Of a DNA stretch of 64,000 nt, positions 28,343-41,827 are shown piece by piece. The notes beneath the pieces were generated by a model that saw only the letters and a list, made by a program, of their open reading frames with translations, had not been told where the DNA came from and searched no databases. Numbering within the stretch: the stretch's first letter is position 1; every line of letters starts with the position of its first letter. The position numbers and the translations under genes are program-made. Source of the DNA: an uncultured Gemmatimonas sp. (GTDB lineage: Bacteria > Gemmatimonadota > Gemmatimonadetes > Gemmatimonadales > Gemmatimonadaceae); assembly GCA_964355025.1 (NCBI GenBank), contig CAYHCW010000001.1, positions 8,488 through 72,487 on the forward strand, in the 5' to 3' direction.

Positions 28343-28372
28343 AGCGTAAATCCGCTACGCGGCCGTTGTCAA
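28343..28372 (-). promoter_or_regulatory. Sigma70-like promoter candidate TTGACA-N18-TACGCT
   Basis: Minus strand: TTGACA (28367-28372, overlapping the Zn-ribbon stop codon) and TACGCT (28343-28348). It lies about 40 nt upstream of the terminator hairpin. Confidence 0.3.
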
Positions 28373-28581
28373 GCCGAAATGAGGGTTGCCAACAGGGGGA
28401 GGGTGGAGATTTCGCGGCAGTGGTGGCAACGGAGCTGCACGCGGTCGACGTAGACGAAGAGCGCACGACCTTGCACGTGGAGCCGAATACTGCCGTCGGG
28501 CGCGGCCACGCCGAGCGGTCCGTCGCACGCGGTGCAACGGATGAGCACGAGCTGCGCAGCGTCGGCCACCGCAGCACTCAC
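28369..28581 (-). CDS. Small zinc-ribbon protein
   Basis: 70 aa from a GTG overlapping the MuF stop (GTGA). Two CxxC pairs (RCTACDG .. RCHHCRE). Confidence 0.4.
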   Translation of the reverse strand: MSAAVADAAQLVLIRCTACDGPLGVAAPDGSIRLHVQGRALFVYVDRVQLRCHHCREISTLPLLATLISA

Positions 28582-29597
28582 GCGGCGAGCTCCAAGCCCC
28601 AGTCGTCGGCGAAGCGCATGCCGGGAGGTATGCTTTGCGTTGTACAGTTGCAATTGGGATGTACCGGCCACAGTGAAGCGACCCAATCTCGCCGCGCGCG
28701 CCCGACGTTCACGCCGTTGCCCACGAGCTCGGCCACGGTGAAGATGCGCGGCTTGCCGTCGTCGCCGAGGAAGAGGCGCCGGCAGTCGGGGCACGCGTCG
28801 GCGTTCGGAATGCGGGCCACGCGCGCTTCGGCGCCGTAGGTGCGGAGTGCTTCGATGGCCGCGCCGTCGTTCGCAACGCCTTGAAGCTCCGTGCGGGCGA
28901 TGCGCCGCCAGTTGCGGGCGTAGTCGCCGGTGCGGTTGGCGAGGTTCGAGGCGAGCTTCTCGGAGCTGAGGCCGCCCGCGACGGCGTCGGCCGTCTCCTC
29001 GCGGATGATGCGGGCGCCGGCCGCGCGCTGCTCGGCGCTGGCCTCGGTCGCGATGTGCTCGCCATCCCATTCCTCGGCGACGAGCTGCCCGATGTCCTCG
29101 GCGACGTAGTTACCGAGGCCGCGCGCGTACTCGCCAGCGCGGGTGCGCGCCTGAATCCACGCCTCACGCGTCGCCTCGTCGAGGCCCGGGGGCGGCGCCG
29201 GTATCGGGAGCCCGCCGATGGGCGGTCCCGGCGGAAGCGCCGGAGGTGGCGGCGCACCGGGCGGCGGAAGCTCGGGCGGCTCGAGGTCGATGTGCGGCCC
29301 GACGATGGTGGGCCGCATGACGGCGATGGGCGCCACGGCCGTGGACGTCGTTGCAGCCGTTGCCATCGCCTGCACGACGGCGTTGACGCGCGGCACCCAT
29401 GCAGCGAGAGGTGCGGCGCGGAGCGCGGGAAGCTCAGGGGGCGGCGCGGCGGCGAGTATCTGCCCGGCGATGAGCGCGAAGAGGAGCGGGTCGATGGTCG
29501 TGCCAGTCACGTGCGCCGCAAGGAGCGCGGGCACGAGCGCGGCGTGCGCGCGGTCCGCAGCGTCCATGGCCGCGCTGACGGCCAGCTCCACCGTCAT
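28578..29597 (-). CDS. MuF / SPP1 gp7-like minor head (head morphogenesis) protein
   Basis: WRRIARTELQGVANDGA and WPVHPNCNCT are hallmark MuF-family motifs. There is a long Pro-rich linker in the N-terminal half. Confidence 0.7.
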   Translation of the reverse strand: MTVELAVSAAMDAADRAHAALVPALLAAHVTGTTIDPLLFALIAGQILAAAPPPELPALRAAPLAAWVPRVNAVVQAMATAATTSTAVAPIAVMRPTIVGPHIDLEPPELPPPGAPPPPALPPGPPIGGLPIPAPPPGLDEATREAWIQARTRAGEYARGLGNYVAEDIGQLVAEEWDGEHIATEASAEQRAAGARIIREETADAVAGGLSSEKLASNLANRTGDYARNWRRIARTELQGVANDGAAIEALRTYGAEARVARIPNADACPDCRRLFLGDDGKPRIFTVAELVGNGVNVGRARRDWVASLWPVHPNCNCTTQSIPPGMRFADDWGLELAA

Positions 29598-29875
29598 CGC
29601 GTCACGGCGGCGATGACCTCGCGCTGGAGCGCGGCGAGTCGCTCGCGGTAGAGGTCTGCCATGTGGTCCGCGAGGTCGTCAAACACGCGAGCGGCGCCGT
29701 CGGCGGGGAGTAGTGGCAGCGGCGCGTGCACGTGCGCCTTGACGAGGGCGGCTTCGGCCTCGGGCAAGTCGCGCGCGGCGACCTCGGCCAGCCCGCAGAG
29801 CGCCTTGGCGAGCTTGCCGCCTGCGCCAGGAGCTCGGGCCTCGCCGGGGTAGCTCTCGACGAGGTGGAGCTTCAC
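29594..29875 (-). CDS. Hypothetical 93-aa protein
   Basis: GTGA/ATGA coupling on both sides. No motif recognised. Confidence 0.35.
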   Translation of the reverse strand: MKLHLVESYPGEARAPGAGGKLAKALCGLAEVAARDLPEAEAALVKAHVHAPLPLLPADGAARVFDDLADHMADLYRERLAALQREVIAAVTR

Positions 29876-32724
29876 GCGGCCTCGCGACGGTAGAGGTAGC
29901 TGCGGGCGCCCGACTTCGCGAGCGCGGCGCTCGGCGCTTGCCCGCGTCGGATGATGAAGCGCGGCGTGCCGAGTTGCGCCGACTTCACTGCGTCGCGAAT
30001 CGGCGCGATGAGGTGCCGCTCGCCGTCGGCGCGCTTGACCACGATGGGCTTGCCGGGCCCGGCGTGGTGAATCTGGACGTCGCCCTTGGCGCCGGCGAGC
30101 GCGGCGTGGAGGAGGTGCTTGTCGACGCGGATGGTCGACGGCTCCTGCGTGTGGTCCTCGGCGGCGTACATGGCCGGGGACGTGCCCTCGCCCTGGATGT
30201 ACATGCCGTCCTTGCCCGAGACGAGCGATGCGTACTTGCCCTCGTTGAGCTTCGACACGGCGTGCAGTTGCTTGGCGTCGAACGTGTGGCCCGGTTGCGC
30301 CTCGGCCTCGGCCGCCATCTCCAGGACGGCTTTGCCGTAGTTCTTGCCGTCGGCCTCGCCGCCCGAGGTCGCGTGCAGCCCTTCGCGCGCTCCCGGTGCA
30401 GGCACGATGACCGCGCGCGAGCCGTTGGTTGCGACGGCGTGGCCGCCGGCGACGTGGAGGTGCTTGAGGTTCGCCCGGTCGTCGTCCGCGCCAGCCACGA
30501 ACGCCGAGAGGCGCTTGCGCGTCTCGGCGGGGAGGTCGCCCTCTTTCGTCGTAGCCGTCGGCTTCGCCTTGCCCGCCACCTTCGCTGCGGCGATGCTCGC
30601 CGCGACGGCTTCAGGCGTGACGTTCTTCGCCTTGCCGGAGACGACGTCGGGCGCGTGCGCCTTGAGCGCTTCGAGGGTCTTCGCGTGCTCGCGATGGCCC
30701 GCAAGCGCTGCGATGTAGCTCGCCATGGCCGCGTCGGCGTCCTTCGGGACGTTGCCTGCGGCCTGCCGGTGCTTCGCGGCGGCGCTCCGGAGGGCCTGCG
30801 TGGCAGGCTCCGCGCCCGCGGCCTCGCTGACGGCGTCGAACTCGTCGGCCTGCACATCGAGCTTGTCGGCGGTCTTGTGCTGCGTCGCTGCCCACTCGGT
30901 ATCGCCCTTGTGCTGGCCCGTCGCGCGCTCGCGAATCGCGTCCACGACCTCGTGCAGGTTGCCGTGGAGCGAGCGGTCCTTCCCGGTCGTGAGGAACTTG
31001 ACGCGCTGCGCGAGGCCCTTGGCGTCCGATGTCGGCATGCCACCGACGGGCGTTTTTAGCGCGGTATCGGCGCCGTACGTGGCCGACCGAGCGGCGTTCT
31101 GCGCCGCAGCGGTGGCGGCGGCGCCGATGTGGTCCATGGTCGTGTCGCTGCTCTGATGCGGCCCGTAGCCGTCGGCGGCGAGGTGGGCGGCTTCGAGCCG
31201 TCGCGAAAGGCCGTCGGCCTTGACGTCCTTGCCGGTCCGCTTCTTGACGCGGTCCGCGATGGCCGCGTCGAGCCTCTTCACGACTTCGCCGTGATTCGGC
31301 GTGTGCGCGTAGACGCCCTTGCGGTCCTCTTTCGGCAGGAGGATGTCGGAGCCACGGTCCTCGGACTCAGCGGGCTTCGGCGGCTCCTCTTTGGCAACCT
31401 TGGTTCCACCGGGCTCAACGGCGGTTGCGGGCTTGCTTGCCCCGAGCTTCGCGATGACCTTCGCCGCCGTGTCCGTTCGGTCCATGTGCAGATTGCGATG
31501 CTGAATCTTCTGGCCGACCATCGCTTCGACGGCGCGCTTGCCGTTCGCGCCGTCGCCGTACAGCTCGACGTGCTCCGCGCCGTACTCGCCCATCTCGCCG
31601 GCGATGTCGTCGATGGCCTTCGCCTTCTCGCCTTCGCTCGGAATCTTCACGAGGTCGAAGTGCTTGGCGTCCTCGTCGCTGAGCGCGTGCGGATACGTCA
31701 CGGTTCCGTGCGCGGCGAAGTCAGCATGCTTCCCGAACTCGGTGAAGCCCTTGGGGACGGTTGCGAATCCAGGAGGCCGGAGCGTTGCGCCGTAGGTGTG
31801 GCTTTCGGCCAGTGCTTTCGGCGCTGGCTTCTCGGGCGCCGCTTCGGCAGCGGGCTTTGCCGCATCGCCGCTCGTGAGTTTTGCGAGCTCTTCCTTCTTC
31901 CCGTCGACCTGCTTCTGCATCCACGATGCGTTGCCGGCGCCGACCGACTTCGCGCGCTTGACGGCGGCCTCGCCGCGCTCGATGTCGCCCTTGAGCTTGG
32001 CGATGTGGTCGGTGTCGGCAGATTGCGCCGCAGCGCCCGCGACGGCTTCAATCTGCCGCGCGAAGTCCTGTTCATCGGCGTGCGTACCCGACGTACCGCG
32101 AATCTTCTGCGCCAGCGCGTGAAGCGCCGTCTTCTCGGCGGGCGTGAATGGGGCGCCGTCCATGAGGTCGTCGATGCGCTTCGGGGTCAGCGCCGCTTCC
32201 TTGACACGGTAGCGGTCGGCCATCTCCGCGATGGAGGCGATGTCCAGTCCGCCGTGCGGCGACTTCTTCGTCTCGTGCTCCTTCGCTGCCGCAGCTCGAG
32301 CGTCGGGCGCCATCCGCCGCACCGTGAGCGGCAGCTTGGCGTTCTTCGCGTGGGCCGCGATGGCCTTCTCATGGTGCGCTCGGAGCTTCGCCGCCAGCTC
32401 GTGCTTGTGCAGCGTCTCGGTCTTGCCCGTCTCGTCGTGCTTGACCGTCACGCGGCCGTCGCCGTGGTCGTGCGTGATTTCAAGGTGTCCGCCCTCGTGC
32501 TTGAACTTCGAGCCGACCTGCATGTGCTCTTCGTGCTCGACGCCGTGCCCGTGCTGCACCTGGTAGAAGTAGCGCCAGCGCCCATTCGCTCCGCGCACGC
32601 GCTTGATGTACTTGTGGGAAAGGCCTTTGAAGATGGGCCCGAACGTCCCGCCGAGCATGCGCTCTTGAGCCTTCCACAGGGTCCAGCCGTAGCGCTCGGG
32701 AAGCTCCCACTCGATGAGCATCAC
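29872..32724 (-). CDS. Giant virion-module protein P950 (shared N-terminal module; C-terminal clamp-like segment)
   Basis: 950 aa with ATGA overlap to the upstream gene. N-terminal module HKYIKRV..RYFYQVQHG..GGHLEITH..VKHDETGKT..AHHEKAIAAHAK is shared with the next two ORFs. The Ala/Lys-rich helical middle is unassigned. Confidence 0.6.
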   Translation of the reverse strand: MMLIEWELPERYGWTLWKAQERMLGGTFGPIFKGLSHKYIKRVRGANGRWRYFYQVQHGHGVEHEEHMQVGSKFKHEGGHLEITHDHGDGRVTVKHDETGKTETLHKHELAAKLRAHHEKAIAAHAKNAKLPLTVRRMAPDARAAAAKEHETKKSPHGGLDIASIAEMADRYRVKEAALTPKRIDDLMDGAPFTPAEKTALHALAQKIRGTSGTHADEQDFARQIEAVAGAAAQSADTDHIAKLKGDIERGEAAVKRAKSVGAGNASWMQKQVDGKKEELAKLTSGDAAKPAAEAAPEKPAPKALAESHTYGATLRPPGFATVPKGFTEFGKHADFAAHGTVTYPHALSDEDAKHFDLVKIPSEGEKAKAIDDIAGEMGEYGAEHVELYGDGANGKRAVEAMVGQKIQHRNLHMDRTDTAAKVIAKLGASKPATAVEPGGTKVAKEEPPKPAESEDRGSDILLPKEDRKGVYAHTPNHGEVVKRLDAAIADRVKKRTGKDVKADGLSRRLEAAHLAADGYGPHQSSDTTMDHIGAAATAAAQNAARSATYGADTALKTPVGGMPTSDAKGLAQRVKFLTTGKDRSLHGNLHEVVDAIRERATGQHKGDTEWAATQHKTADKLDVQADEFDAVSEAAGAEPATQALRSAAAKHRQAAGNVPKDADAAMASYIAALAGHREHAKTLEALKAHAPDVVSGKAKNVTPEAVAASIAAAKVAGKAKPTATTKEGDLPAETRKRLSAFVAGADDDRANLKHLHVAGGHAVATNGSRAVIVPAPGAREGLHATSGGEADGKNYGKAVLEMAAEAEAQPGHTFDAKQLHAVSKLNEGKYASLVSGKDGMYIQGEGTSPAMYAAEDHTQEPSTIRVDKHLLHAALAGAKGDVQIHHAGPGKPIVVKRADGERHLIAPIRDAVKSAQLGTPRFIIRRGQAPSAALAKSGARSYLYRREAA

Positions 32725-35700
32725 GCCACCTTGCGCGGCTGCGCCGCCGACTTGAGGAGGTCGCCGATGATGGCGCCGAAGGGCCCGCGGTAGAGGCCCG
32801 GCGAGGTCCCGCCGCCGAAGACGGCGTTGAGGTGCTCGTTGCCGATGCGCCAGCCCTTGCCGTGTTGGGCGTGGTCATCGAAGCGCGCGCCAGGCGCCTT
32901 GCGCTTGATGTCCTCGTAGTGCTGGCGCGTGTTGCCGGTGATGAAGGTGTGCGTCGTGCCCATCGGGTGCAGACGCAGGCCCTTGTCAGCGGCGCTCTGA
33001 TGATGCGCGGGCGACGGCGCGGTGGGCGGTAGCTGCGGCTTGCCGACCGTCGAAATGGGCGGCACCACGGGTGGCGGCTGCGTCGCGCCAGCGGCCGCCT
33101 CGAGGTGCTTCGGCCGGAGCGGAACCGTGGCCTTCGCGCCCGTGTCCGGGTGCGTGTACTCGACGTGGTGCTTCTCGCCGTCGTGCCCCGTGACCGTACC
33201 CGTCCAGTTGCCGCCGTGGCCCATGTCTTCGAGGAGCTCTTGCGCGGCGGGCGTCGGCTTCACCTTGGCGCCGACGGCGTGGTGACCTGCGGGCAGCGCG
33301 GGCGCCGACGGCGCGGTGGTCTTCGGTGTGGGCGGCGGTGCGACGGGCGCGGAAGGCGTCGGCTGCTGGCCGAACGCCGTGCCGAGCGGACCGGGCTTTG
33401 GCGCGGGCGCTTCCGCCCCGGCAGCGGGCTTCGCCGTGCCCGCGACCTCGATGTCATCGACGTGGGCCGAGTGTCGAATCGGGCCGTAGTAGTAGCCGCC
33501 CGTGCTGGGTCGCTCGACGGTGACCTCGCCGCTGCCATCATGCGACACGATGGATGCTTCGCCGTTCCACCGGCCACCCGTATGCGTCACCTTCGTTCCG
33601 ATGGGCGGCGGGTCGGGAGGGATGTAGCCCGGGATGTCTCGCGGGCGCACGCTGCCACCGATTTCGTCGACCGTCAGCGGCGTGACCTTGACGTCGTGCA
33701 CGGCGAGCTTCTCGGCGAGCTTGACGACCTGGTCGTGCCCGTCGGCCGTGGCGCCTCGGATGCCCGCGATGCGGCCCGCGCTGGCCTTGTGGTGCTTGCG
33801 CATGCCGTAGAGGTTGTACTGACCGTTGCTGCGGCGGCGGACATCGATACCGACGGTCGCGAGCTGCGCGGCGGCACGGCGCACGCCCGTGTCGGCTGCG
33901 GCGGCCTTCTTCTTCATGCGCTCGCGATGGCCCTCGCCGATGACGTCGCGACCCGCCTTGCGGGCTTCGGCGACGCGGCGAAAGTGCGCGTAGGCGTCGG
34001 CGGCGGCGGCCTGGATGGCGGCCTTCTTGATCTGACCCGCCGTCATCGGCTCGTCGTCGCCTTCCTCGCCGGCGGGCCCGTCGCCCTCGGCGCCGTCGAG
34101 CGCGCCTTCGAGCCCCTTGTCGATGTCCTCGGCGTCGTCGTCGCCGCCGAACTCGAACGCGGCGAGGGACGCCGCCGAGTCGTTTGCGCCGGGGTTGCCG
34201 TCCACGAGCGAGCCCATGCGCTGCGCCCGCTCGGCGACGCGCGAAGCGTTCTTCCGCTCGACGGGATGGTCGCCGACGATGTAGGTGATGTTGGCCCGCG
34301 ACTTCGAGCCGACGCGGTACATGCGGCCGTTGACCTGCTCCATCTTCGCGGCCGACCACGGCAGCGAGAGGTTGATCATCTCGCGCTGCGCGTCGCCACG
34401 GATGTCGTGGAGCGAGAATCCCGTGCCCGCCTTGTCCATCGTGCAGACGACGACCTTCTTGGTTCCCGCCTGAAAGGCCTTCTGCTCCTCGACGGGGTCC
34501 TTGTTCGTGCCGCCGTGGATTTCCGCGACCGCGCCGACGCCGCCGAAGGTCTCGACGAGCTTCTTGACCGGGTTGATGACGGGCGGAAGGTTCTTGAGCT
34601 TCTCGTCGATGCGGCCCGCGGCCATCTCGAAGGCGTGCGCCTGCGCGTGGTTCTCTTTCGCGCGCATCTTGGCCGCGCGGCGACGGAGCGAGCGGGCGAA
34701 GCCGAAGAGCTGCGAGTTCTTGTATTCCTTGTAGGACGTGAAGAATCCGACCTGCTTGCCCTCGGCGAGCGCCTTCTTGCCGCGCTCGATGGCCTCGTCC
34801 GCCTTGAGCGTCTCCCAATAGGCCTTGGCCCAGTTGGTCATGTGCGCCGAGAGGAGCGTCGGGTCCATGCCCGCGTCCTTGGCGATGGCGTGGACCTCGT
34901 CGGCGATCCGGAAGGTCGTTTGCGCGTGCTCGGGCAGGGCGTCGTCGCCGCCCGACATGACGTGGAAGCCCGTCTTGACGCCGCTCATGTCGATGCCCCG
35001 CTTGAGCGCGCGGCCGTCCACGAGGAGCGTGGCCGCGATGGCGGTCATCGGCTCGGCGCTCGACGGGTTCTCGATTTTCGCGGGCACGTCGCCGTAGCCG
35101 CTCGCGCCGGGCTTGACGACGGCGCCCGCCTTGGCGGCCCAATCGGCGAACTCGGGCCCCGTGCGGTAGAGGCCGAGGTGACGAAGGTAGTGCATGTCCA
35201 CGATGTTCGTGAACGGGGTCGCCGAGAGGTAGGCGACGTGCTGGCCGTGCGCCTGGAGCTGGACGCCGGCCTGCGCGCGCGCCGTGTCCGGGTTCGCCAT
35301 GTTGTGCGATTCGTCGAAGATGATGGTGTCGAAGTTGCGGAACTCGGGCTTGAGCCGCGCTTCGGTGACGGGCTTGCCGTCCTTCTTGTAGCCGATGACG
35401 ACGTTGTCGTAGAGCTCGCCGTAGCTCGCGATGAACGTGCCGTCGTCGGACGGGTGCACCTTGCGCTGCGCCTTGATGTTGAAGAGGTCGGCGGCATCGA
35501 CCCACTGCACTGAGAGGTTCTTCTTGCCGCCCTCGGGAATGACGATGAGGTTGCGCTTTCCGCCCTGCGCCACCATCGCCGTCAGCCCGAGAACGGTCTT
35601 GCCGAGCCCGGGGGAGTCCTGAATGGCGATGCCGTGGCCGCGCGCCCACGCGGAAAGCATCTGGCCGGCGCCGTACATCTGGTCATCGTTGACCTGCTGG

Positions 35701-36797
35701 TACTGCGCGTTGCCGTTCTGGAACGTGCGTAGGTGCTCGGGGATGGGGTGCGTGATGTCGGGCGCGAGGTCGACGTTGTCTTGCTTCGCCCACCGCTCGG
35801 GCGGCTTCCACTTCTCCGGGCCGTCCGCCGAGTCCTCGGTGAAGGTGGGCGCCTGGCCTTGCGCGGCGGCGACCTCCTCAGCGGGCGGCGGCTCTACGTT
35901 CGGGAGCCCGGGGATGCTTTCGCTTTCGCCTCCCGCGCCGCTCTTTCCTTCTTCTTGTCCTTGACGAGCTGGTCGATTCGAGCGCGGGCGCTCGGTGGCA
36001 GGGCCCAATAGCCCGGAATCTCCACCGCTCCCAGCGCCTTGACCTCGCCGCTTGCCTTGTCCGCCATCGCCGCCATCCTTCCCCGGCGCCGCGCCGGCCT
36101 TGGGTCCGCTCTCGCCCGGGGTCTTCTTGCCGCCCTCACCGGGCTTCGCCGTGCCACCGCTCGAGGTCTTCTTGCCGTCGCCGGTGCCCGCACCTGCCGT
36201 TGTGCCACTCGCGGGCGCGGCGGGCTTCGCCGTCTTGCCCGCGGCGGCCTTCTTCTTGCGCTCCTCGTCCTCGACGGCCTTCTTCGCAGCGGCCTGCTCG
36301 GCGAGGTGCTGCTTCATGGCCTCTTCGCGCTTGCCGGGGGCGAGACGGCGCACCTTGAGCGGCATGGCCGCGTGCTTGGCGTGCGCGGCGATGGCGCCCT
36401 TGTGGTGCTCGCGGAGCATGGCCGAGAGCTCGGCCTTCGTGACCTTCTTCGTCTCGCCGGTCTCGTCGTGCTTGATGGTGAGCGTGCCGTCCTCGGCGAC
36501 GTGGGTGATGTGGAAGTGCCCGCCCTCGTGCATGAAGGCCGCGTGAAGGACGAAGTGGTCCTCGTGGGCAACGCCACGGCCGTGCTGCACCTGGTAGAAG
36601 TAGCGCCACGGCCGCTTCGGGTTCCCCGTCGGCACGCGCTTGAGGTACTTGTGCCCGAGGCCTTTTTGCAGGCCCCACAGTCGCTCGCCGTAGTCGGAGG
36701 GGAGCTCGAGCCACGCCGCAACATCGGGCGTCTCGACGGCGCCGAAGAGGCTCTTGAAGATGGCGCTGATGGGTCCGGAGCGTGGCAGCGTACTCAT
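32721..36797 (-). CDS. Giant virion-module protein P1358 with SNF2-type helicase core
   Basis: Contains the shared N-terminal module. Helicase motifs: I SPGLGKT (35595-35609), II FDESH (35304-35318), III YLSATP, and a late QVNGRMYRVGS. A K/G/A-rich low-complexity linker spans aa 170-300. Confidence 0.7.
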   Translation of the reverse strand: MSTLPRSGPISAIFKSLFGAVETPDVAAWLELPSDYGERLWGLQKGLGHKYLKRVPTGNPKRPWRYFYQVQHGRGVAHEDHFVLHAAFMHEGGHFHITHVAEDGTLTIKHDETGETKKVTKAELSAMLREHHKGAIAAHAKHAAMPLKVRRLAPGKREEAMKQHLAEQAAAKKAVEDEERKKKAAAGKTAKPAAPASGTTAGAGTGDGKKTSSGGTAKPGEGGKKTPGESGPKAGAAPGKDGGDGGQGKRRGQGAGSGGDSGLLGPATERPRSNRPARQGQEEGKSGAGGESESIPGLPNVEPPPAEEVAAAQGQAPTFTEDSADGPEKWKPPERWAKQDNVDLAPDITHPIPEHLRTFQNGNAQYQQVNDDQMYGAGQMLSAWARGHGIAIQDSPGLGKTVLGLTAMVAQGGKRNLIVIPEGGKKNLSVQWVDAADLFNIKAQRKVHPSDDGTFIASYGELYDNVVIGYKKDGKPVTEARLKPEFRNFDTIIFDESHNMANPDTARAQAGVQLQAHGQHVAYLSATPFTNIVDMHYLRHLGLYRTGPEFADWAAKAGAVVKPGASGYGDVPAKIENPSSAEPMTAIAATLLVDGRALKRGIDMSGVKTGFHVMSGGDDALPEHAQTTFRIADEVHAIAKDAGMDPTLLSAHMTNWAKAYWETLKADEAIERGKKALAEGKQVGFFTSYKEYKNSQLFGFARSLRRRAAKMRAKENHAQAHAFEMAAGRIDEKLKNLPPVINPVKKLVETFGGVGAVAEIHGGTNKDPVEEQKAFQAGTKKVVVCTMDKAGTGFSLHDIRGDAQREMINLSLPWSAAKMEQVNGRMYRVGSKSRANITYIVGDHPVERKNASRVAERAQRMGSLVDGNPGANDSAASLAAFEFGGDDDAEDIDKGLEGALDGAEGDGPAGEEGDDEPMTAGQIKKAAIQAAAADAYAHFRRVAEARKAGRDVIGEGHRERMKKKAAAADTGVRRAAAQLATVGIDVRRRSNGQYNLYGMRKHHKASAGRIAGIRGATADGHDQVVKLAEKLAVHDVKVTPLTVDEIGGSVRPRDIPGYIPPDPPPIGTKVTHTGGRWNGEASIVSHDGSGEVTVERPSTGGYYYGPIRHSAHVDDIEVAGTAKPAAGAEAPAPKPGPLGTAFGQQPTPSAPVAPPPTPKTTAPSAPALPAGHHAVGAKVKPTPAAQELLEDMGHGGNWTGTVTGHDGEKHHVEYTHPDTGAKATVPLRPKHLEAAAGATQPPPVVPPISTVGKPQLPPTAPSPAHHQSAADKGLRLHPMGTTHTFITGNTRQHYEDIKRKAPGARFDDHAQHGKGWRIGNEHLNAVFGGGTSPGLYRGPFGAIIGDLLKSAAQPRKVA

Positions 36798-36831
36798 GGT
36801 CGTCTCTCCCGTGGCCTCGCGCGCGAATGTA

Positions 36832-39800
36832 TCACGTCCATAACCTGTTGCACACGCCGAAAGCGGTGGCGAGCGGCCCGGCTTTGGCGACGGTGCCCGC
36901 GCCCGCGTGCGCTCGGCGCCCGATGCGCTTACCCTCGCGCGCCGGGTCCATCGCGAGGCGCTTGAACCGCCCGATGCTCATGGTGACGTGCCCGCCGTAG
37001 AAGCCGGGCGCGTCGTACTGCCGCTTGTAGGCGGCCACGGCGGCCACGGCCGTGCGCCATCCGAGGAAGACCTTGTCCTCGTCGGGCTTCCCGGTCGCCG
37101 GGTCCTTCTGATGGACAACGACAACGAGCGGCGAGTCGTGGTCCGGACCGATGTAGGCGTCGAGTGCGTCGCCGTCCATGCCGCCCGCGCCGCGAATCTC
37201 GCCGTAGTCCCAGCGCATGAGTGTGCGCCATGCGGTGCCGTCCTCGGCGACGCCTTCGCGGTAGGAGCCGCGCGCGTTCTCGACGTCGACCGTGAGCCCT
37301 TGGAAGTCGACGGTCCCGACGAAGGGGCACTTGCGTCGGCGCTTCGTCGCCGGCCCCATCGGCGGCCGGTGCGGTGCGTAGTGCGGAACCTGCGCGAGGC
37401 CTGCCTTGACGAGCGTCGCAAGGAGACGCGCGCCCTTCGTGAGGTTGTCGCCGAAGACGGCGAGCACGGCCTTGACGTGCGGCGCAATCTTTTCACGGAA
37501 CTCGGTCGGGTCGAAGTACGCCGATTGCGCCCCACCACTGTAGCTGACGTGCGTGAGGGTGGGGGCGACGACGCCGGTGTCGGCGAGCTGCTGATGAAGG
37601 TACTGCTCGACGCCGCGCGCGAGCACCTCGGTCCCCATCTGGTAGTAGGCGTTGCGCTCGTCGCTCGCGTCGTACGTGTCGCCGCCGAGCTCGGTCATGA
37701 GCTTACGCAGCACGTCGCCTTGCGCGTCCTTGTCCTTGAACCGCTCGTAGCCGCCTGTCGCCTTGACGGCGCGGTGGAACGAAAGGAGCTCTTTGCCGCC
37801 CGCGACACCGGCGACTTCGGCCTCAGTGGCATCGTGCAGGCGACGGCCATCGGGCGTCTGGAACTCCGCGTCGCCCGCGTGGCGCACGAGCCACGACGCC
37901 ATGTTGCCGATGTACTGATGGTTGCGTGTCTCGGTCGAGGCCTTTATCATCGCGTGCTCCGCCGCGAGGAGGTCGGGCGTGCTGCCTGCGGGACCATGGG
38001 GCAACCCGAGGTCGCGATGCACCTTCGCGCTCGCGCGAACGTGCGGCGGCGAAAGTCGCGTCATGGTGCCGCTGACGTTGCCGACCTGCTGATGCTGGAC
38101 GCGCACGGCGATGCGATTCTCGATGTAGTGCAGGAGCTCGTGGCCGAGCGACTTCTCGAAGCCCATGTTGATGGCGATGTGCGGCCCGATGCTACTCCGC
38201 GTGTCCGCTTGGAGCTTGCGCTTGCCCATCGTCTCGCGGTCCACGTCGGTCGGGCTGTTGGTCGGTTGGTAGTGCGCGTTGGCGCCGGCCGTGACCCATC
38301 GGTCGCTGATGACGAGCGGGAGCCCGGAGAGGTCGAGCTTCGTGAAGCCTGCGGCCTTCTCGAAGTGTTCGAGCGCGTGCCAGACGCCGCGAAGCGTGGC
38401 GGTGCGCGCCTCAGTGGACGACTGCGACGCTTCGTTGAGCTCGTTGAACGCGGCCTTGGCGGCGGGCGATGCCTTCTTGTCCACGGTCGGGACGATGTTC
38501 ACGCTGTCGGCGCCGAAGTTGACCTTCGAGAGGCGATTCCAGCGCGCGGACTGCTCTTTGTCGCTGTCGCGGGAGCCGCCCATGCGGACGCCGACGGCGG
38601 GCGTCGCGAACGCGGCATAGGCGTCGTCGTCAAGCACGACCTGGACGCCGAAACGCTCCGAGAAGAGCTGCTTGACCTTGGAGTGCTCGGCCTTGAGCGC
38701 GGTGAAGTGATGGTCGATGATGCCCGTCTGCGCCTCGAAGGGCTGCGCGTCGCGCCCGAGGTAGAGCGGCTGCAACAGAGCGTTGACGGCGGAGGTCGCC
38801 TCGGCGACGCGATGGTCCCAGTGATGGCGCTCCATCGCCGTGACCTGCGTCGTGCGGATGAGCTGCTTGTCCGCCTCGATGGCGCGCTCGAGCACGCCGA
38901 CGGGCTCGGTGCCGACGATGCGGAGGTGTGCCGCGGCCTCGTCGCCCTTCTCGGCGCGCGTGAGGTTCGTGTAGCCGAGGAGCTCCGAGATAGCCGCGGC
39001 GGGCACGAGGCCCGACTTGTAGGACGTCGAGGTGAGCGTCTTCAGGGCCACGAGGCCCGCTTGCGTGCGCACCTGCGGCAGGTTGTTCTTGAGGAACTCC
39101 CACGCGGTGCGCGTGCCGCGCGCGTCCTTGTAGTAGGCCGTGCGGGCGTCGGCGATGATACGCTCAATGGCGAGCGCGGCGCGGCCTTCGAGCGGGCGCT
39201 GGCGGTCGATGGCGAGGTCGTCGCGGGCGAGGTCGAAGTCGACGAACGAGCGAAGCGCTCGGACGGCGCGGCTGATGCTGCGCGCGGCCCATCGGTCCAC
39301 GGGGCCATCGAACGCGCCGGCGCCTTCCTTCCAGAGTCCCGTGGCGTCGTCGGCGCCATCGGTTCCGAGCGTCTTGGTGAAGAGCGACTTGAGCCACGCG
39401 CGCGCGTCTGCGTCGTGCTCGGTCCAGTTGGCGCCAACGGCGAAGCCGGCGAGGTCGCCGTAGTGGCGCTGGACGATATGCAGCGCGGCGAGGTCGCTCG
39501 GTGAGAGGTTCAGTCTCCCCTTATCGTCGTAGCTTCCCGCCCCCTCCAGCGTGCGGCTGCCCTCGAGGAGCGCCAGCGCGTCGCGCACGCGGCGGCGCTG
39601 CGCGTGGCCCTTCGGCGCGTGCGCTTCGTGGAACGCGTCACCGCCAGCGGGAATCTTCGCGAACCACTCCATCATGCCGCCGAAGGCGCGCACGATGTTC
39701 GCGTGGTAGGCCTCGGCTCGAGCTCGTTGCTTGGCCGTGCCGTGCAACCGCGCGGCATGCACGTCCTGTGCGGCGCGGTGGCCGACCTCTTTGAGCGCGT

Positions 39801-40137
39801 CGCGGTGGTGCTCGTGGACCACGTCGCGGAGCTGCGCGAGGGTCATCGTCCGCGTCTCGCCGCCCTCGTCGTGCTTGACCTTCACGGTGGCGCCGTTGCG
39901 CGCGATGACGTGGTAGTGGCCGCCGTCCACGCGGAAGGCGGCGCCGACCTGCATATCGTCGTCGTGCGCGAGGCCGCGCCCGAGACGCGCGGTGGCGCGG
40001 TAGATGTAGCGGTAGCGCGTCTTCCCTGTGCGCGTCGTGTGCCCCGTCGGTACTTTTGAAAGGTACTTATGGGCGAGGCCCTTGAGGAGAGCGAGGAGCG
40101 GGCCGGGGCGACGCCAGAATGGGACGGCGGCACTCAT
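36832..40137 (-). CDS. Giant virion-module protein P1101 with HExxH zincin-like motif
   Basis: Contains the shared N-terminal module. HELLH at 38128-38142, preceded by AHYQP..IAINMG and followed by TEVLARGVEQYL. The C-terminal segment WDYGEIRG..DGDALDAYIG resembles a pyrophosphatase-type core. ATGA overlap with the portal stop. Confidence 0.6.
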   Translation of the reverse strand: MSAAVPFWRRPGPLLALLKGLAHKYLSKVPTGHTTRTGKTRYRYIYRATARLGRGLAHDDDMQVGAAFRVDGGHYHVIARNGATVKVKHDEGGETRTMTLAQLRDVVHEHHRDALKEVGHRAAQDVHAARLHGTAKQRARAEAYHANIVRAFGGMMEWFAKIPAGGDAFHEAHAPKGHAQRRRVRDALALLEGSRTLEGAGSYDDKGRLNLSPSDLAALHIVQRHYGDLAGFAVGANWTEHDADARAWLKSLFTKTLGTDGADDATGLWKEGAGAFDGPVDRWAARSISRAVRALRSFVDFDLARDDLAIDRQRPLEGRAALAIERIIADARTAYYKDARGTRTAWEFLKNNLPQVRTQAGLVALKTLTSTSYKSGLVPAAAISELLGYTNLTRAEKGDEAAAHLRIVGTEPVGVLERAIEADKQLIRTTQVTAMERHHWDHRVAEATSAVNALLQPLYLGRDAQPFEAQTGIIDHHFTALKAEHSKVKQLFSERFGVQVVLDDDAYAAFATPAVGVRMGGSRDSDKEQSARWNRLSKVNFGADSVNIVPTVDKKASPAAKAAFNELNEASQSSTEARTATLRGVWHALEHFEKAAGFTKLDLSGLPLVISDRWVTAGANAHYQPTNSPTDVDRETMGKRKLQADTRSSIGPHIAINMGFEKSLGHELLHYIENRIAVRVQHQQVGNVSGTMTRLSPPHVRASAKVHRDLGLPHGPAGSTPDLLAAEHAMIKASTETRNHQYIGNMASWLVRHAGDAEFQTPDGRRLHDATEAEVAGVAGGKELLSFHRAVKATGGYERFKDKDAQGDVLRKLMTELGGDTYDASDERNAYYQMGTEVLARGVEQYLHQQLADTGVVAPTLTHVSYSGGAQSAYFDPTEFREKIAPHVKAVLAVFGDNLTKGARLLATLVKAGLAQVPHYAPHRPPMGPATKRRRKCPFVGTVDFQGLTVDVENARGSYREGVAEDGTAWRTLMRWDYGEIRGAGGMDGDALDAYIGPDHDSPLVVVVHQKDPATGKPDEDKVFLGWRTAVAAVAAYKRQYDAPGFYGGHVTMSIGRFKRLAMDPAREGKRIGRRAHAGAGTVAKAGPLATAFGVCNRLWT

Positions 40138-41819
40138 GCCGCTTCGACTATCCAGGCCCTTACGCCGCTATGGTGGCTCGGCGCCGGCACCATCGCGCGC
40201 CGAGCGCCGGGGCGACGCGGGCCCTTGCGCACGAGGCGGCCGTCGGCGAGCGCTTGCTCGCCCGACTTGACGAGCTGGCGCGTCCAGTCATCGACGCTGT
40301 TCCACCGCGTGCCCTTGATGGTGTCTGCATCCATGAAGCCGCTCTGCTGGTCGTCGGGCGGCATCGCGCCGTCGAACGGCTCGTCGTCCTCGCCCTCGCC
40401 GGGGGCGCCGCCTGGAGGCGCCGCGCCGTCACGCGCGCTCATAGCGGCCGACGCGAACTCCTGCGAGAGCGGGAGGTCGGCAATCTCGGAGTCGAGGCGC
40501 TCGAGGTCGTGCTCGTCGCGGAGCTCGTTCGGCGTCTTGTAGGTCTTGACCGCCTCCATCGCGAGCTTGTGGCGCTCAATCTCGGACATCGCGCCGAAGC
40601 CGCCGAACTCCATCATGAAGTCGGGGTCGAGCGGCTGGACAATCCACGTCGTGAACCACCATCCGAGCGAGCGAAGGATGGGGCGTAGCCCGCGCTCTTT
40701 GGAGGCGACGATGCGGTCGCCGGGACCTTGCGTGCTCAGCGCGGAGGTCTGGCCTTCGTTGCCGTAGATGAGGCCGTTTTCGGCCGGGTCCATGCCGTAG
40801 ACGAGGTGGGCGAGCTTGACGCGCCAGTTAATCCACTGGCTGTATTCCATATCCTTGTTCGTTTCGGACAGGGAGACGGCCTTGATGTCCTCGTGCATGC
40901 GCGGGTCGAGCTGAATGAAGGGCGTCCGCGCGGCGTTGCGCGGGCCCGTGAGCATGGCGGTGACGCTGCGCCGGAAGGCGCCCCAGACCTTACCGTCCAT
41001 GGTCGACATGACGGCGATGATGTGGTTCGCGTGCACGCCGTTGGTAAAGTTTACCGAATTGAACGTCTCGGCGTTCACGAGGTCGGTAATCACTACCACC
41101 AACTCGTCGAGCTCCGGAAAGCCGTACCGACCGATGGCCTGCAACGTGCGCGGGCGCCGGATGCCCCAAATCATCTCGTCGCGGGTGAACTCGGCGACGA
41201 CGCGGCCCGTGGAGTCGCGCTGCACCATCTCGGGCTCGCCGGGCTCGGGCCACGCCTGCCCACGCGCTCGGGCGGCGTCCTTGGGCTTGGCGAGGCGGAT
41301 GGTCGTCGCGTCGGAGGGCACGTAGCCGCAGGGCTTGCCGAGGCGGTTGTGCAGCACCTCGGCGTTGAGCTGGTCGTAGGTGAGCGAGTCGCGCATCATG
41401 GCCCGCACGGCGAGCTCCATGTTGCCGGGGCCCCATCGCCCGCCAGCGACCATGAGGACGTTCTCGATTTCGGTGGAGCGCCGCTCGGCGGCGGCCGTCA
41501 TCTTCGCCTTGCGGTCGCGCAGGGCCACACGGAAGCCGAGCTCGTAGGGCGACGACTGCGGCATGCAGAAGTCGGCCACCTGGTTGATGCGCGTGTTGAT
41601 GATGCCGCTGATGACGGGGACGCGGCTCATGGCGATGAGCTGGCGGTAGTCGAGGCCGAGCGCGCCGGGGTGGAAGGCGCTGTAGAGCGGGCTGGAGGTG
41701 TCCTCGAAGCCGAGGATGAGCGGGTCGACGTTGTGGACCTTGGGCTCGGCGCGGTTCGCTTCGATGAGCGCGGCGTCGCCGGGCTTTACGCCCTTGTCCT
41801 TGCGTCTGCGTCGGGCCAC
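40134..41819 (-). CDS. Portal protein
   Basis: 561 aa from GTG 41819, just after the upstream stop at 41828. Size, acidic C-terminus and position at the head of the late block next to MuF-associated genes support the call. The N-terminal 44 codons of the ORF-track entry were rejected. Confidence 0.6.
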   Translation of the reverse strand: MARRRRKDKGVKPGDAALIEANRAEPKVHNVDPLILGFEDTSSPLYSAFHPGALGLDYRQLIAMSRVPVISGIINTRINQVADFCMPQSSPYELGFRVALRDRKAKMTAAAERRSTEIENVLMVAGGRWGPGNMELAVRAMMRDSLTYDQLNAEVLHNRLGKPCGYVPSDATTIRLAKPKDAARARGQAWPEPGEPEMVQRDSTGRVVAEFTRDEMIWGIRRPRTLQAIGRYGFPELDELVVVITDLVNAETFNSVNFTNGVHANHIIAVMSTMDGKVWGAFRRSVTAMLTGPRNAARTPFIQLDPRMHEDIKAVSLSETNKDMEYSQWINWRVKLAHLVYGMDPAENGLIYGNEGQTSALSTQGPGDRIVASKERGLRPILRSLGWWFTTWIVQPLDPDFMMEFGGFGAMSEIERHKLAMEAVKTYKTPNELRDEHDLERLDSEIADLPLSQEFASAAMSARDGAAPPGGAPGEGEDDEPFDGAMPPDDQQSGFMDADTIKGTRWNSVDDWTRQLVKSGEQALADGRLVRKGPRRPGARRAMVPAPSHHSGVRAWIVEAA

Positions 41820-41827
41820 GTGCGGAC

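What the first reader, a model, noticed from the sequence alone, without database searches (positions are those of the whole stretch)
29872..40137. Three consecutive giant ORFs (1101, 1358, 950 aa) between portal and MuF share a reiterated ~100-120-aa N-terminal module
Read side by side, the N-termini are clearly paralogous while the protein bodies differ.
- P950: GLSHKYIKRVRGANGRWRYFYQVQHGHGVEHEEHMQVGSKFKHEGGHLEITHDHGDGRVTVKHDETGKTETLHKHELAAKLRAHHEKAIAAHAKNAKLPLTVRRMAP
- P1358: GLGHKYLKRVPTGNPKRPWRYFYQVQHGRGVAHEDHFVLHAAFMHEGGHFHITHVAEDGTLTIKHDETGETKKVTKAELSAMLREHHKGAIAAHAKHAAMPLKVRRLAP
- P1101: GLAHKYLSKVPTGHTTRTGKTRYRYIYRATARLGRGLAHDDDMQVGAAFRVDGGHYHVIARNGATVKVKHDEGGETRTMTLAQLRDVVHEHH
The DNA positions are about 32275-32622, 36333-36662 and 39802-40083. 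The 10.3-kb trio sits exactly between portal and a MuF/SPP1-gp7-like head protein, with ATGA coupling at 32721-32724 and 40134-40137. Large multidomain 'polyvalent' proteins next to MuF are known as head-packaged, injected cargo. I cannot assign the shared module to a named family. It could be a capsid-targeting or ejection address tag, a portal or DNA handle, or a protease-removed propeptide.
Basis: partly seen in the sequence, partly recalled or inferred. Interest (0 to 1): 0.8.

Follow-up and report, generated by a model that had tools for sequence, protein, structure and literature searches.

The report
Repeated header domain on phage cargo proteins
Three giant phage genes lying between the portal and head-assembly genes each begin with the same unnamed ~140-residue domain, which in related viruses recurs up to four times inside one giant protein, once before each enzyme block, and so probably acts as a label or anchor for loading that block into the virus head.

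Summary
The 1101-, 1358- and 950-aa ORFs on the minus strand share one N-terminal module and nothing else (BLASTP E 3e-42 to 8e-16). They carry standard phage "polyvalent protein" cargo: a zincin-like motif with LPD1 and InPase, a Strawberry-notch/SNF2 helicase, and DarA_C. They sit in a translationally coupled run from portal to MuF to protease to capsid gene.

New here: the module is a real, widespread family with no curated name. A full HMMER search found 714 clusters. Pfam, PHROGs, NCBIfam and PDB have no match, and 50,697 cultured phage genomes have none either. In relatives it recurs two to four times inside single 2,000-3,600-aa proteins, once ahead of each cargo block. The window is the split form of such a polyprotein, because its ORF junctions align to continuous sequence in a relative.

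A confident model (pLDDT 82) shows a very basic, tyrosine-rich β-hairpin, a histidine-rich SH3-like barrel and a helical hairpin. In 38 of 51 related loci the module genes lie beside the same head genes.

The best reading is a per-cassette header that loads or anchors cargo inside the head. This is inferred, not shown. It is a new variant of a known kind.

The parts
40134..41951 (-). Portal protein gene. Its stop codon overlaps the P1101 start (ATGA at 40134-40137).
   Evidence: phrog_12 E 8.4e-24, phrog_15361 E 1e-23, PF04860 weak. Junction read.
36832..40137 (-). P1101 (1101 aa): header module, then a large uncharacterised region with an HELLH motif, then an LPD1-like stretch, then InPase.
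   Evidence: Translation. PF18823 InPase E 9e-31 and PF18796 LPD1 at 19.5 bits, below cutoff. GC3 0.89.
39664..40137 (-). Header module of P1101 (residues 1-158), the canonical long form with the helical hairpin '...HGTAKQRARAEAY...'.
   Evidence: Module HMM covers residues 1-140 at 158 bits. AF2 with a 48-sequence alignment gives pLDDT 82 and elements H13-21, E27-34, E40-45, E67-99, H100-110, H112-132, H135-156.
38128..38142 (-). HELLH (HExxH) motif in P1101, a possible zincin-like metallopeptidase site upstream of the LPD1-like stretch.
   Evidence: Motif position. Relatives carry HEWGH ahead of LPD1 (sequences). The link to the MPTase of Iyer et al. is inference.
37453..37659 (-). LPD1-like stretch of P1101 (residues 827-895).
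   Evidence: PF18796 E 1e-3, 19.5 bits against a 27-bit cutoff. LPD1 is significant in 12 of 24 related giant proteins.
36961..37317 (-). InPase (polyvalent-protein type inorganic pyrophosphatase) domain of P1101 (residues 941-1059).
   Evidence: PF18823 E 9e-31. phrog_4660 and phrog_10089 hits.
32721..36797 (-). P1358 (1358 aa): header module, a low-complexity linker, a Sbno/SNF2 helicase, two small barrel repeats and a C-terminal DUF5710-like tail.
   Evidence: Translation. PF13871 E 2.5e-11 and PF13872 E 2.3e-8. phrog_62 DNA helicase E 2.8e-33. A 34-nt spacer with GGGAGAG lies before the ATG.
36309..36713 (-). Header module of P1358 (residues 29-163), the short-tail variant ending in ...MPLKVRRLAP.
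   Evidence: Module HMM covers residues 35-163 at 170 bits. Alignments A1 and A2.
34149..35681 (-). Strawberry-notch/SNF2-type helicase core of P1358 (residues 373-883).
   Evidence: Pfam AAA_34, Helicase_C_4, DEAD and ResIII. phrog_62 and phrog_16.
29872..32724 (-). P950 (950 aa from GTG, 949 from ATG): header module, DarA_C, then an uncharacterised C-terminal part.
   Evidence: Translation. PF18789 DarA_C E 1.1e-6, 29.5 bits, above the cutoff. The start overlaps the P1358 stop (GTGATG).
32284..32709 (-). Header module of P950 (residues 6-147), the short-tail variant ending in ...LPLTVRRMAP.
   Evidence: Module HMM at 160 bits. BLASTP against P1358 E 2.7e-42.
31639..31803 (-). DarA_C domain of P950 (residues 308-362).
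   Evidence: PF18789 E 1.1e-6.
29594..29875 (-). Small coupled ORF (93 aa) between P950 and MuF, with no family assignment.
   Evidence: GTGA overlap with the P950 stop and ATGA overlap with the MuF start. No Pfam, PHROG or NCBIfam hit.
28578..29597 (-). MuF / SPP1 gp7-like minor head protein.
   Evidence: PF04233 E 4.5e-5, below the cutoff. phrog_115 minor head protein E 2.5e-6.
27447..28238 (-). Head maturation protease.
   Evidence: phrog_1028 E 1.2e-19.
25011..26576 (-). Major capsid protein.
   Evidence: phrog_752 E 1.6e-31. At most 26% identity to any cultured phage capsid protein.

Best explanation
The three ORFs are the split form of a reiterated polyvalent effector polyprotein of an uncultured myovirus lineage.

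Each unit, or cassette, has three parts:
- a header module of about 130-160 residues;
- a flexible linker;
- anti-defence or takeover cargo. Here the cargo is a zincin-like motif with LPD1 and InPase, a Sbno/SNF2 helicase, and DarA_C.

The cassettes are made late, together with portal, MuF, protease and capsid protein.

The header is the only element the cassettes share. Its most likely role is a cis-acting loading and anchoring domain. It would dock each cassette to a component of the assembling head interior (scaffold or core, the inner capsid surface, portal or MuF). Its highly basic, tyrosine-rich hairpin probably also contacts the packaged DNA. On this model the cargo is built into the procapsid, held there, and leaves with the DNA at infection.

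Shown: the domain, its reiteration, its position at the start of each cassette, the fission/fusion relationship, the head-gene synteny and the fold.

Inferred: virion packaging, the docking partner and DNA contact.
For: 1. The module is the only region shared by the three proteins. If all three are packaged, it is the only candidate for a common signal.

2. A full HMMER search found 714 cluster representatives, 598 of them at E <= 1e-10. Of the best 152, 33 carry 2-4 copies in one polypeptide. Modules lie 99-1824 residues apart (median about 800) with cargo between them. Example P0006: module, module, methyltransferase, module, SNF2 helicase, module, DUF5710.

3. The cargo census is purely phage-type polyvalent: LPD1 in 12 of 24 proteins, InPase in 6, ddrB-ParB in 6, Sbno/SNF2 in 4.

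4. The first module starts within 50 residues of the N-terminus in 116 of 152 proteins.

5. The P1358 C-terminus joined to the P950 N-terminus aligns without interruption to residues 1650-1797 of the single protein P0033 (E 2e-34). The InPase-to-module transition, the counterpart of the P1101/P1358 junction, is likewise continuous in P0033, whose InPase end is homologous to P1101's by reading. The module is therefore kept whether cassettes are fused or separate, which argues that each cassette needs it in cis.

6. In 38 of 51 related loci (GC 43-71%) the fetched stretch holds portal, MuF, protease or capsid homologues. All 57 module ORFs in those loci run in the same direction as the head genes, with a median gap of 10 bp (PHROG confirmation).

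7. The AF2 model is confident (pLDDT 82). The hairpin carries a net charge of +7.6 +/- 1.0 with three invariant tyrosines, and the barrel holds about 4.5 histidines.

8. Precedents. P1 DarA and Hdf bind the inner capsid surface and DNA, and leave with the DNA (PMC12810830). ArdC-N has been proposed as an N-terminal 'header' of conjugative polyvalent proteins (PMC5512222). Phage polyvalent proteins are typically encoded among virion genes.
Against: - No member has been shown to be in a virion, and the lineage has no cultured representative. There is no tblastn match in 50,697 phage records even at E <= 1.
- No partner has been identified.
- In some relatives MuF, itself a virion-association domain, appears by eye to be fused upstream of module-bearing cassettes (P0019, P0062; the Pfam census, which scanned P0019 but not P0062, reported no Phage_Mu_F). 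In such fusions one carrier might be expected to suffice.
- Modules within one protein are old, diverged paralogues (31-70% identity). Only 14 of 66 have their nearest neighbour in the same protein. There is therefore no sign of co-adaptation to a genome-specific partner.
- The strong positive charge and the SH3/Tudor/PWWP-like barrel would also fit a plain nucleic-acid-binding role.
Confidence: 0.45

Rival explanations
1. DNA-riding tether only. The module is a nucleic-acid-binding domain that keeps each effector on the phage genome, in the capsid and on the entering DNA. Helicase, methylase and ParB-type cargo would then act where restriction strikes. Loading into the head would be mediated by something else, such as MuF or the portal.
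For: The β-hairpin has a net charge of +7.6 +/- 1.0 with invariant Tyr, Lys and Arg. The only fold resemblances are to SH3-like barrels, many of which bind nucleic acids: a bacterial PWWP bound to ssDNA, KOW, and the integrase C-terminal domain. Most cargo acts on DNA. ArdC-N, an ssDNA-binding N-terminal header in conjugative polyvalent proteins, is a precedent. P1 DarA-Hdf contacts DNA.
Against: All fold matches are weak (E >= 0.03, low TM). InPase and zincin/LPD1 cargo do not act on DNA. Proteins above 100 kDa must be built into the procapsid before DNA enters, so DNA binding alone cannot load them (established for T4 internal proteins and P1 Dar proteins; general knowledge). This role is not exclusive of the best explanation.
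Confidence: 0.22
2. Processing element or propeptide. The module, or its leader or tail, is the recognition or cleavage unit by which the prohead protease or the zincin-like peptidase cuts polyproteins into cassettes. It is then removed, like the DarA N-terminus or the T4 capsid-targeting sequence.
For: The module sits exactly at cassette boundaries. Iyer et al. predict that polyvalent proteins are processed by zincin-like peptidases. P1101 carries HELLH and relatives carry HEWGH. DarA residues 1-69 are cleaved by the P1 prohead protease. A head protease gene lies three genes downstream. Conserved leader and tail motifs flank the core, for example P..[VI]RR[LM]AP.
Against: The module is fully retained where cassettes are already separate ORFs, as in the window and most loci. 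A mere cut site would be dispensable there. A confidently folded domain of 130-160 residues with about 25 near-invariant positions is far more than a cleavage signal. No common cleavage motif was evident upstream of internal copies.
Confidence: 0.12
3. Host-phase function. The module acts after injection. It might localise cargo to a host structure, sense metal or pH through its histidines, oligomerise the cassettes, or neutralise a host defence protein itself.
For: There are invariant His, Asp and Glu positions (H23, H74, H89, D90, H111 in P1101 numbering) and about 4.5 histidines per barrel. Some LPD domains with conserved polar residues are suspected enzymes.
Against: A host-directed domain would not be expected once per cassette, nor tied so strictly to one head-gene set. 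No catalytic fold or known ligand-binding family matched.
Confidence: 0.1

Closest known systems
Phage-type polyvalent proteins (Iyer, Burroughs, Anand, de Souza & Aravind 2017, J Bacteriol; PMC5512222)
   Same: They are giant multidomain proteins encoded among late virion genes next to portal and MuF. They carry the same cargo repertoire (SNF2/Sbno helicase, methylases, DdrB-ParB, InPase, LPD1, DarA_C, zincin-like motifs) and are predicted to be packaged and injected.
   Different: A header domain recurring before every cargo block is not described in the text I could read, and the module matches none of the LPD models in Pfam. I could not check the LPDs that exist only in the paper's FTP supplement.
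Phage P1 Dar system: DarA, Hdf, DarB, DdrA and DdrB (Zheng et al. 2026, PMC12810830)
   Same: These are head-internal anti-restriction proteins. Two of them, DarA and Hdf, share a paralogous N-terminal domain followed by an α-helical domain that binds the inner capsid surface and DNA, and they are ejected with the DNA. P950 carries DarA_C, P1358 is a DarB-like helicase, and relatives carry DdrB-ParB.
   Different: The module shows no detectable homology to DarA_N or Hdf (hhalign probability about 0.1%; no Pfam hit). In P1 the shared domain occurs in two separate small and medium-sized proteins. It is not reiterated along polyproteins or placed on every effector.
ArdC-N 'header' domain of conjugative-element polyvalent proteins
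   Same: It is a non-catalytic domain with a marked preference for the N-terminus of polyvalent proteins. It has been proposed to couple the rest of the protein to delivery and to bind the transferred DNA.
   Different: It has a different fold (helices plus a nested β-hairpin related to XPC/Rad4 BHD) and no sequence or fold match to the module. It usually occurs once per protein, in T4SS elements, and is rare in phages.
T4 capsid targeting sequence on internal proteins and Alt; MuF/SPP1 gp7 carrier fusions
   Same: These are N-terminal elements that bring otherwise unrelated cargo into the phage head (general knowledge; MuF fusions).
   Different: The T4 sequence is a peptide of about 10 residues removed by the prohead protease. 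MuF is a different domain and here is encoded by a separate gene (28578-29597). The module is a folded domain of 130-160 residues that can occur internally and repeatedly.
SH3-like small β-barrels (Tudor, PWWP, KOW, integrase C-terminal domain)
   Same: The core of the module (residues 67-99 of P1101) is a four-stranded small barrel followed by a helix. The best PDB resemblances are to these folds.
   Different: Matches are partial and not significant (E >= 0.03, query-normalised TM <= 0.25). The basic hairpin, the helical hairpin and the sequence signature (KGxGHKY...RYxY...GHxH...HDE[TS]G) have no counterpart.

Membership tests
Phage-type polyvalent proteins (Iyer et al. 2017) | One polypeptide combines two or more domains of the polyvalent repertoire. 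| tested here: met
   P1101 has InPase (E 9e-31) plus an LPD1-like stretch and HELLH. P1358 has a Sbno/SNF2 helicase. P950 has DarA_C (29.5 bits against a 27-bit cutoff). For P950 only one known domain besides the module was recognised.
Phage-type polyvalent proteins (Iyer et al. 2017) | Encoded among late or virion genes, often next to or fused with MuF or portal. | tested here: met
   The order is portal, P1101, P1358, P950, orf93, MuF, protease, capsid protein, all on one strand and mostly with overlapping stop and start codons. The same holds in 38 of 51 related loci.
Phage-type polyvalent proteins (Iyer et al. 2017) | Physically packaged in the virion and delivered to the host. | not testable with these tools
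   There are no proteomic data and no cultured relative.
DarA_N / Hdf domain (PF18788) | Sequence match to the family profile or to P1 DarA or Hdf. | tested here: not met
   No Pfam hit even at E <= 10. hhalign of the 48-sequence module profile gives probability 0.06% against Hdf and 0.13% against DarA.
ArdC-N (ssDNA-binding header domain) | Sequence match to the ArdC-N model, or the fold of helices plus a nested β-hairpin. | tested here: not met
   No Pfam hit. No ArdC or XPC/Rad4 structure appears among the top 50 Foldseek PDB matches. Only the N-terminal 'header' position is analogous.
MuF / SPP1 gp7 (PF04233) | Match of the module to the MuF profile. | tested here: not met
   None of the three proteins or their modules hit PF04233. 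MuF is the separate ORF at 28578-29597.
SH3-like small β-barrel superfold (Tudor, PWWP, KOW) | A five-stranded, or four plus one, small barrel that superposes on known members with significant scores. | tested here: inconclusive
   The model contains a four-stranded barrel plus helix at pLDDT above 90. The best PDB matches are E 0.03-0.4 with query-normalised TM 0.15-0.25.
T4-type capsid targeting sequence or propeptide | Short N-terminal signal removed by the prohead protease at a defined motif. | not testable with these tools
   Cleavage cannot be computed. No common motif was seen upstream of 70 or more aligned copies. The module is a folded domain, unlike a targeting peptide.
Any curated protein family (Pfam-A 2025, PHROGs v4, NCBIfam 20, PDB sequences) | Significant profile match covering the module. 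| tested here: not met
   Pfam's best hit is E 0.087 and unrelated. The best PHROG hits are E about 1e-3 to 0.2, short and inconsistent. NCBIfam gave none. The PDB profile search gave 0 hits at E <= 1.

The most novel reading that the evidence does not exclude
The module is an autonomous, portable head-loading domain. Any polypeptide placed behind it is built into the procapsid of this phage lineage and delivered with the DNA. That would explain why evolution can freely fuse, split and shuffle cassettes, up to six module-bearing ORFs in a row in one viral contig. It would be a natural, modular cargo-loading system for tailed phages, comparable to encapsulin targeting peptides or T4 capsid targeting sequences but built on a folded domain. 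It could be reused to package chosen proteins.
Probability: 0.3. Interest if true: 0.8.

Novelty: new variant of a known kind. Interest (0 to 1): 0.6.

Why it matters
How very large effector proteins (100-400 kDa) are selected for and held inside phage heads is known for only a few model phages, namely T4 targeting peptides, P1 DarA/Hdf and the N4 virion polymerase.

This finding offers a conserved, easily recognised domain that marks the start of every cargo unit in a whole uncultured phage lineage. It gives a concrete candidate for the loading or anchoring signal and a clear unit of modular evolution. The hypothesis is directly testable with module-reporter fusions and procapsid co-expression.

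In practical terms, a new profile for this domain would annotate hundreds of currently hypothetical giant viral proteins and would help delimit effector cassettes in metagenomic phage genomes. If the loading role holds, the domain could be used to package chosen proteins into capsids.

Tried and rejected
- Megablast of 27000-42000 and tblastn of three different module sequences against 50,697 cultured phage records gave no match, even at E <= 1. This is explained by the lineage being uncultured: the capsid protein is at most 26% identical to any cultured phage. It therefore says nothing about function.
- The word-indexed protein searches found only 5 and 25 mostly fragmentary hits, with no names and no Pfam domains. 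The index is too insensitive for this family. The full HMMER scan was needed.
- The exact-sequence contig look-up for P1101 found nothing on record. The context of the small hit P0161 was a contig of many tiny ORFs and was uninformative.
- The search for related loci with alignment A3 failed because no stretch was conserved enough. It was redone with A2 and A4.
- The first AF2 run on 7 sequences was poor (pLDDT 62) and was replaced by a 48-sequence run.
- Homology to P1 DarA_N or Hdf was rejected.
- I tested for concerted evolution or co-adaptation of modules within a genome. The result was negative: only 14 of 66 modules have their nearest neighbour in the same protein.
- I looked by eye for a shared protease cleavage motif upstream of internal copies. 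Nothing convincing emerged.
- I tried to check whether the module equals one of the LPD1-40 domains that never reached Pfam. The paper's supplement is not held.

Full report
**What is in the window.** The window is 69% GC. From about 3.9 kb to 42 kb it carries a minus-strand block of phage structural genes. In transcription order they are:
- portal, 40134-41951
- three giant ORFs: 36832-40137 (1101 aa), 32721-36797 (1358 aa) and 29872-32724 (950 aa)
- a 93-aa ORF, 29594-29875
- a MuF-like minor head protein, 28578-29597
- a head maturation protease, 27447-28238
- the major capsid protein, 25011-26576
- further downstream, a tail sheath, 16886-18868

A large terminase gene lies upstream at 48820-50613. 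The element is therefore a myovirus-type phage or prophage.

The three giant ORFs have third-position GC of 0.86-0.89, typical of real genes at this composition.

The genes from portal to MuF are translationally coupled:
- portal/P1101: ATGA
- P1101/P1358: a 34-nt spacer containing GGGAGAG
- P1358/P950: GTGATG
- P950/orf93: GTGA
- orf93/MuF: ATGA

**Check of the observation.** The shared N-terminal module is real. All-against-all BLASTP gives E = 2.7e-42 (P950/P1358), 1.4e-22 (P1358/P1101) and 8e-16 (P950/P1101). Nothing else is shared at E below 1e-3.

With the conserved leader and the following helices, the modules span 39664-40137, 36309-36713 and 32284-32709. One detail was wrong: the junction at 32721-32724 is GTGA/TGATG, not ATGA.

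**What the proteins are.** Outside the module the proteins carry domains of the phage polyvalent protein repertoire.
- P1101 has InPase (E 9e-31), an LPD1-like stretch and an HELLH motif.
- P1358 has a Strawberry-notch/SNF2 helicase (PF13871 and PF13872; phrog_62 E 2.8e-33).
- P950 has DarA_C, above Pfam's cutoff.

Iyer et al. 2017 (PMC5512222) describe such proteins as encoded among virion genes, often fused or adjacent to MuF, and predict that they are packaged and injected.

**The module is an unnamed but widespread domain.** It matches nothing in any curated resource:
- Pfam, even at E <= 10
- PHROGs
- NCBIfam
- PDB sequences, searched by profile

A full HMMER scan of 1.84 billion cluster representatives, using a seven-sequence profile, found 714 proteins at E <= 1e-3. 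Of these, 598 were at E <= 1e-10 and 99 at E <= 1e-30. The window's own three proteins are among the hits (P0034, P0027, P0032).

The consensus signature is ΦP.WΦG..ΦW ... KGAGHKYΦ[KR]RΦP ... [KR]YRYΦY ... GAAF ... GHΦHΦ ... Φ.HDE[ST]G ... L..ΦL..EH ... HG[ST].KQ.

**Reiteration inside single proteins.** Of the best 152 hits:
- 33 carry two to four copies in one polypeptide of up to 3,608 residues;
- modules lie 99-1824 residues apart (median about 800) with cargo between them;
- in 116 the first copy starts within 50 residues of the N-terminus.

Examples of the layout:
- P0006: module, module, methyltransferase, module, SNF2 helicase, module, DUF5710.
- P0007: weak module, ddrB-ParB, module, LPD1, module, DUF5710, module.

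A Pfam census of 24 further giant members found only phage-type polyvalent cargo:

| Domain | Members (of 24) |
|---|---|
| LPD1 | 12 |
| InPase | 6 |
| ddrB-ParB | 6 |
| Sbno/SNF2 | 4 |
| DUF5710 | 2 |
| C5-methylase, ferritin-like, KTSC | 1 each |

The module therefore heads each cargo cassette.

**The window is a split polyprotein.** I joined the last 51 residues of P1358 to the first 150 of P950. This sequence aligns without a break across the stop/start junction to residues 1650-1797 of the single protein P0033 (E 2e-34). In P0033 the end of InPase also runs straight into the next module. That stretch matches the C-terminus of P1101 (read), so the transition corresponds to the window's P1101/P1358 junction.

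Fission or fusion at cassette boundaries thus leaves the module attached to the following cargo.

**Genomic context elsewhere.** Pattern scans recovered 48 distinct IMG/VR loci and 5 loci in GTDB species genomes. All five GTDB loci are MAGs, one of them a Myxococcales chromosome. GC content ranges from 43% to 71%.

I used profiles grown from the window's own head proteins. In 38 of the 51 loci with a module ORF, the fetched stretch of at most 20 kb holds a portal, MuF, protease or capsid homologue. In those loci:
- all 57 module ORFs run in the same direction as the head genes;
- the median gap to the nearest head gene is 10 bp;
- 53 of 57 lie within 5 kb.

PHROG scans of three loci confirmed the same families: portal phrog_12, protease phrog_1028 and capsid protein phrog_752.

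Gene order varies: portal-MuF-module genes-protease-capsid, or portal-module genes, or module gene-portal-MuF. Membership in the head gene block does not vary. One 89.6-kb contig carries six module-bearing ORFs around portal and MuF (L021 and L019).

The lineage is uncultured. The capsid protein is at most 26% identical to any of 50,697 deposited phages, and the module is absent from them.

**Structure.** With a 48-sequence alignment, AlphaFold2 gives a confident model of P1101 residues 1-170 (mean pLDDT 82, core above 90). Its elements, in order, are:
- a short helix;
- a β-hairpin carrying HKY...RYxY (27-34 and 40-45);
- a four-stranded small barrel (67-99);
- a helix (100-110);
- a helical hairpin (112-132 and 135-156).

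Foldseek against PDB finds nothing significant, only partial SH3, KOW, PWWP or Tudor barrels at E >= 0.03. Against predicted viral structures there is one clear match, itself a family member: a 'DdrB-like domain-containing protein' of an uncultured phage, at E 2.9e-7.

Across the family the hairpin has a net charge of +7.6 +/- 1.0 with three invariant tyrosines. The barrel is mildly acidic and holds about 4.5 histidines.

P950 and P1358 belong to a rare sub-variant in which the second helical element is replaced by P..[VI]RR[LM]AP.

**Mechanism, best reading (inference).** Large internal head proteins have to be co-assembled into the procapsid before DNA enters. This is established for T4 internal proteins and P1 Dar proteins. 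The module is the only element common to the three proteins. It is present once per cassette and is kept whether cassettes are fused or separate. It travels with a single set of head-assembly genes.

The most economical explanation is a cis-acting header that docks each cassette to a component of the head interior. The basic, aromatic hairpin probably also contacts DNA.

The nearest experimentally studied analogue is P1. There, 55 DarA-Hdf pairs bind the inner capsid surface through helical domains, touch the DNA through a positively charged face, and leave with the DNA (PMC12810830). The nearest conceptual analogue is the ArdC-N 'header' of conjugative polyvalent proteins.

The module is not homologous to either. 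hhalign probability against Hdf and DarA is about 0.1%, and there is no ArdC-N match.

**Rivals.**
- A DNA tether without a loading role fits the charge and the fold class. It cannot by itself explain loading, and it fits poorly with non-DNA cargo.
- A mere processing site or propeptide fits the boundary position, the nearby protease and the zincin-like motifs. It does not explain why a folded domain of 130-160 residues is kept on cassettes that are already separate ORFs.
- A host-phase role (metal or pH sensing, targeting, or an enzyme) is suggested by the invariant His, Asp and Glu. It does not explain the once-per-cassette pattern or the link to head genes.
- Modules within one protein are old paralogues (31-70% identity), and their nearest relatives are usually positional orthologues elsewhere (52 of 66). 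There is no signal of recent homogenisation that might have pointed to a genome-specific partner.

**Limits.**
- Nothing here shows that the proteins are in virions.
- The locus scans relied on two short peptide patterns and so under-sample the family.
- ORF starts in the fetched loci are over-extended by the mechanical ORF caller.
- I could not compare the module with the LPD alignments that exist only in the supplement of Iyer et al..

**Verdict.** The three ORFs are a split polyvalent effector polyprotein of an uncultured myovirus lineage. Their shared N-terminus is a new, unannotated header domain that recurs before every cargo cassette. The class of protein is known. The reiterated header, and what it implies for cargo loading, is a new variant worth experimental follow-up.

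Noticed in passing
window 33438-33602 and 33087-33275 (P1358 residues 1066-1120 and 1175-1237): Near the C-terminus of P1358 there are two small β-rich repeats. The first gives a weak BLAST match to the barrel part of the header module (P950 residues 70-100 vs P1358 1066-1100, E 0.05). A relative, P0042, has a barrel-only copy at its C-terminus (HMM positions 51-103, 31 bits). The barrel may therefore be an independent sub-domain that also occurs without the basic hairpin.
   Followed up: partly
window 38128-38142 (P1101 residues 666-670): An HELLH (HExxH) motif lies about 160 residues upstream of the LPD1-like stretch. Relatives carry AHEWGH ahead of LPD1. This may be the zincin-like peptidase that Iyer et al. 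propose processes polyvalent proteins. No Pfam peptidase model matched.
   Followed up: partly
window 32305-32322 and 36336-36353: The modules of P950 and P1358 end in a conserved tail, LP[LK].VRR[ML]AP, in place of the usual second helical element (HG[ST].KQ...). The same tail (P..[VI]RR[LM]AP) occurs in only two other cluster representatives (P0033/L025 and P0063). Its role as a docking peptide, a cleavage site or neither is unknown.
   Followed up: partly
window P1358 residues 8-19 and about 1335-1350; P1101 residues 11-20 and about 1083-1092; P950 residues 29-34: A short motif, GP[FLI]..ΦΦK or G, recurs at both the N- and C-terminal ends of the cassette proteins: SGPISAIFKSLFG, RGPFGAIIGDLLKSA, PGPLLALLKG, AGPLATAFG and FGPIFKG. 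It also recurs at cassette boundaries and termini of P0033 (GPFARLLKA appears twice there, and GPFSTMLALLEK at its N-terminus). It looks like a boundary mark whose meaning is unknown.
   Followed up: no
window 35808-36305 (P1358 residues about 165-330): A low-complexity linker of about 165 residues, rich in Gly, Ala, Lys, Pro and Glu, separates the header module from the helicase. Similar charged or Pro/Ala-rich linkers follow the module in many relatives.
   Followed up: no
window 29594-29875: A 93-aa ORF is coupled on both sides (GTGA with the P950 stop, ATGA with the MuF start). It has no family in Pfam, PHROGs or NCBIfam, and my iterative search found no homologue in the related loci.
   Followed up: partly
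L021 + L019 (IMGVR_UViG_3300028173_000007, 89.6 kb): One viral contig encodes six module-bearing ORFs in a row around portal and MuF (1126, 303, 1850, 835, 932 and 2114 aa). That is roughly 7,000 residues of putative cargo in a genome of about 90 kb.
   Followed up: partly
L007 (CP070713.1, Myxococcales MAG chromosome, 562881-583219): This is the only hit inside a multi-megabase chromosome. A 1715-aa module protein is followed by portal and MuF homologues, which suggests a prophage and points to a possible host group for this high-GC lineage. The other four GTDB hits are short MAG contigs.
   Followed up: no
relatives P0033, P0019, P0014, P0029, P0037, not the window: A second short conserved motif, GP[YF]IGPRGGKWADP.HT[IV].W, recurs in several giant relatives, sometimes more than once per protein. 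It lies outside the header module and also looks like a reiterated peptide element of these polyproteins.
   Followed up: no
window 25011-26576 and the whole structural block: The capsid protein's closest cultured relatives are Thermus phages, Pseudomonas phage Dolphis and SPO1-like phages, at only 22-26% identity. Megablast of 27000-42000 (the portal-to-protease stretch) finds nothing. The window therefore represents a phage lineage with no cultured member.
   Followed up: partly
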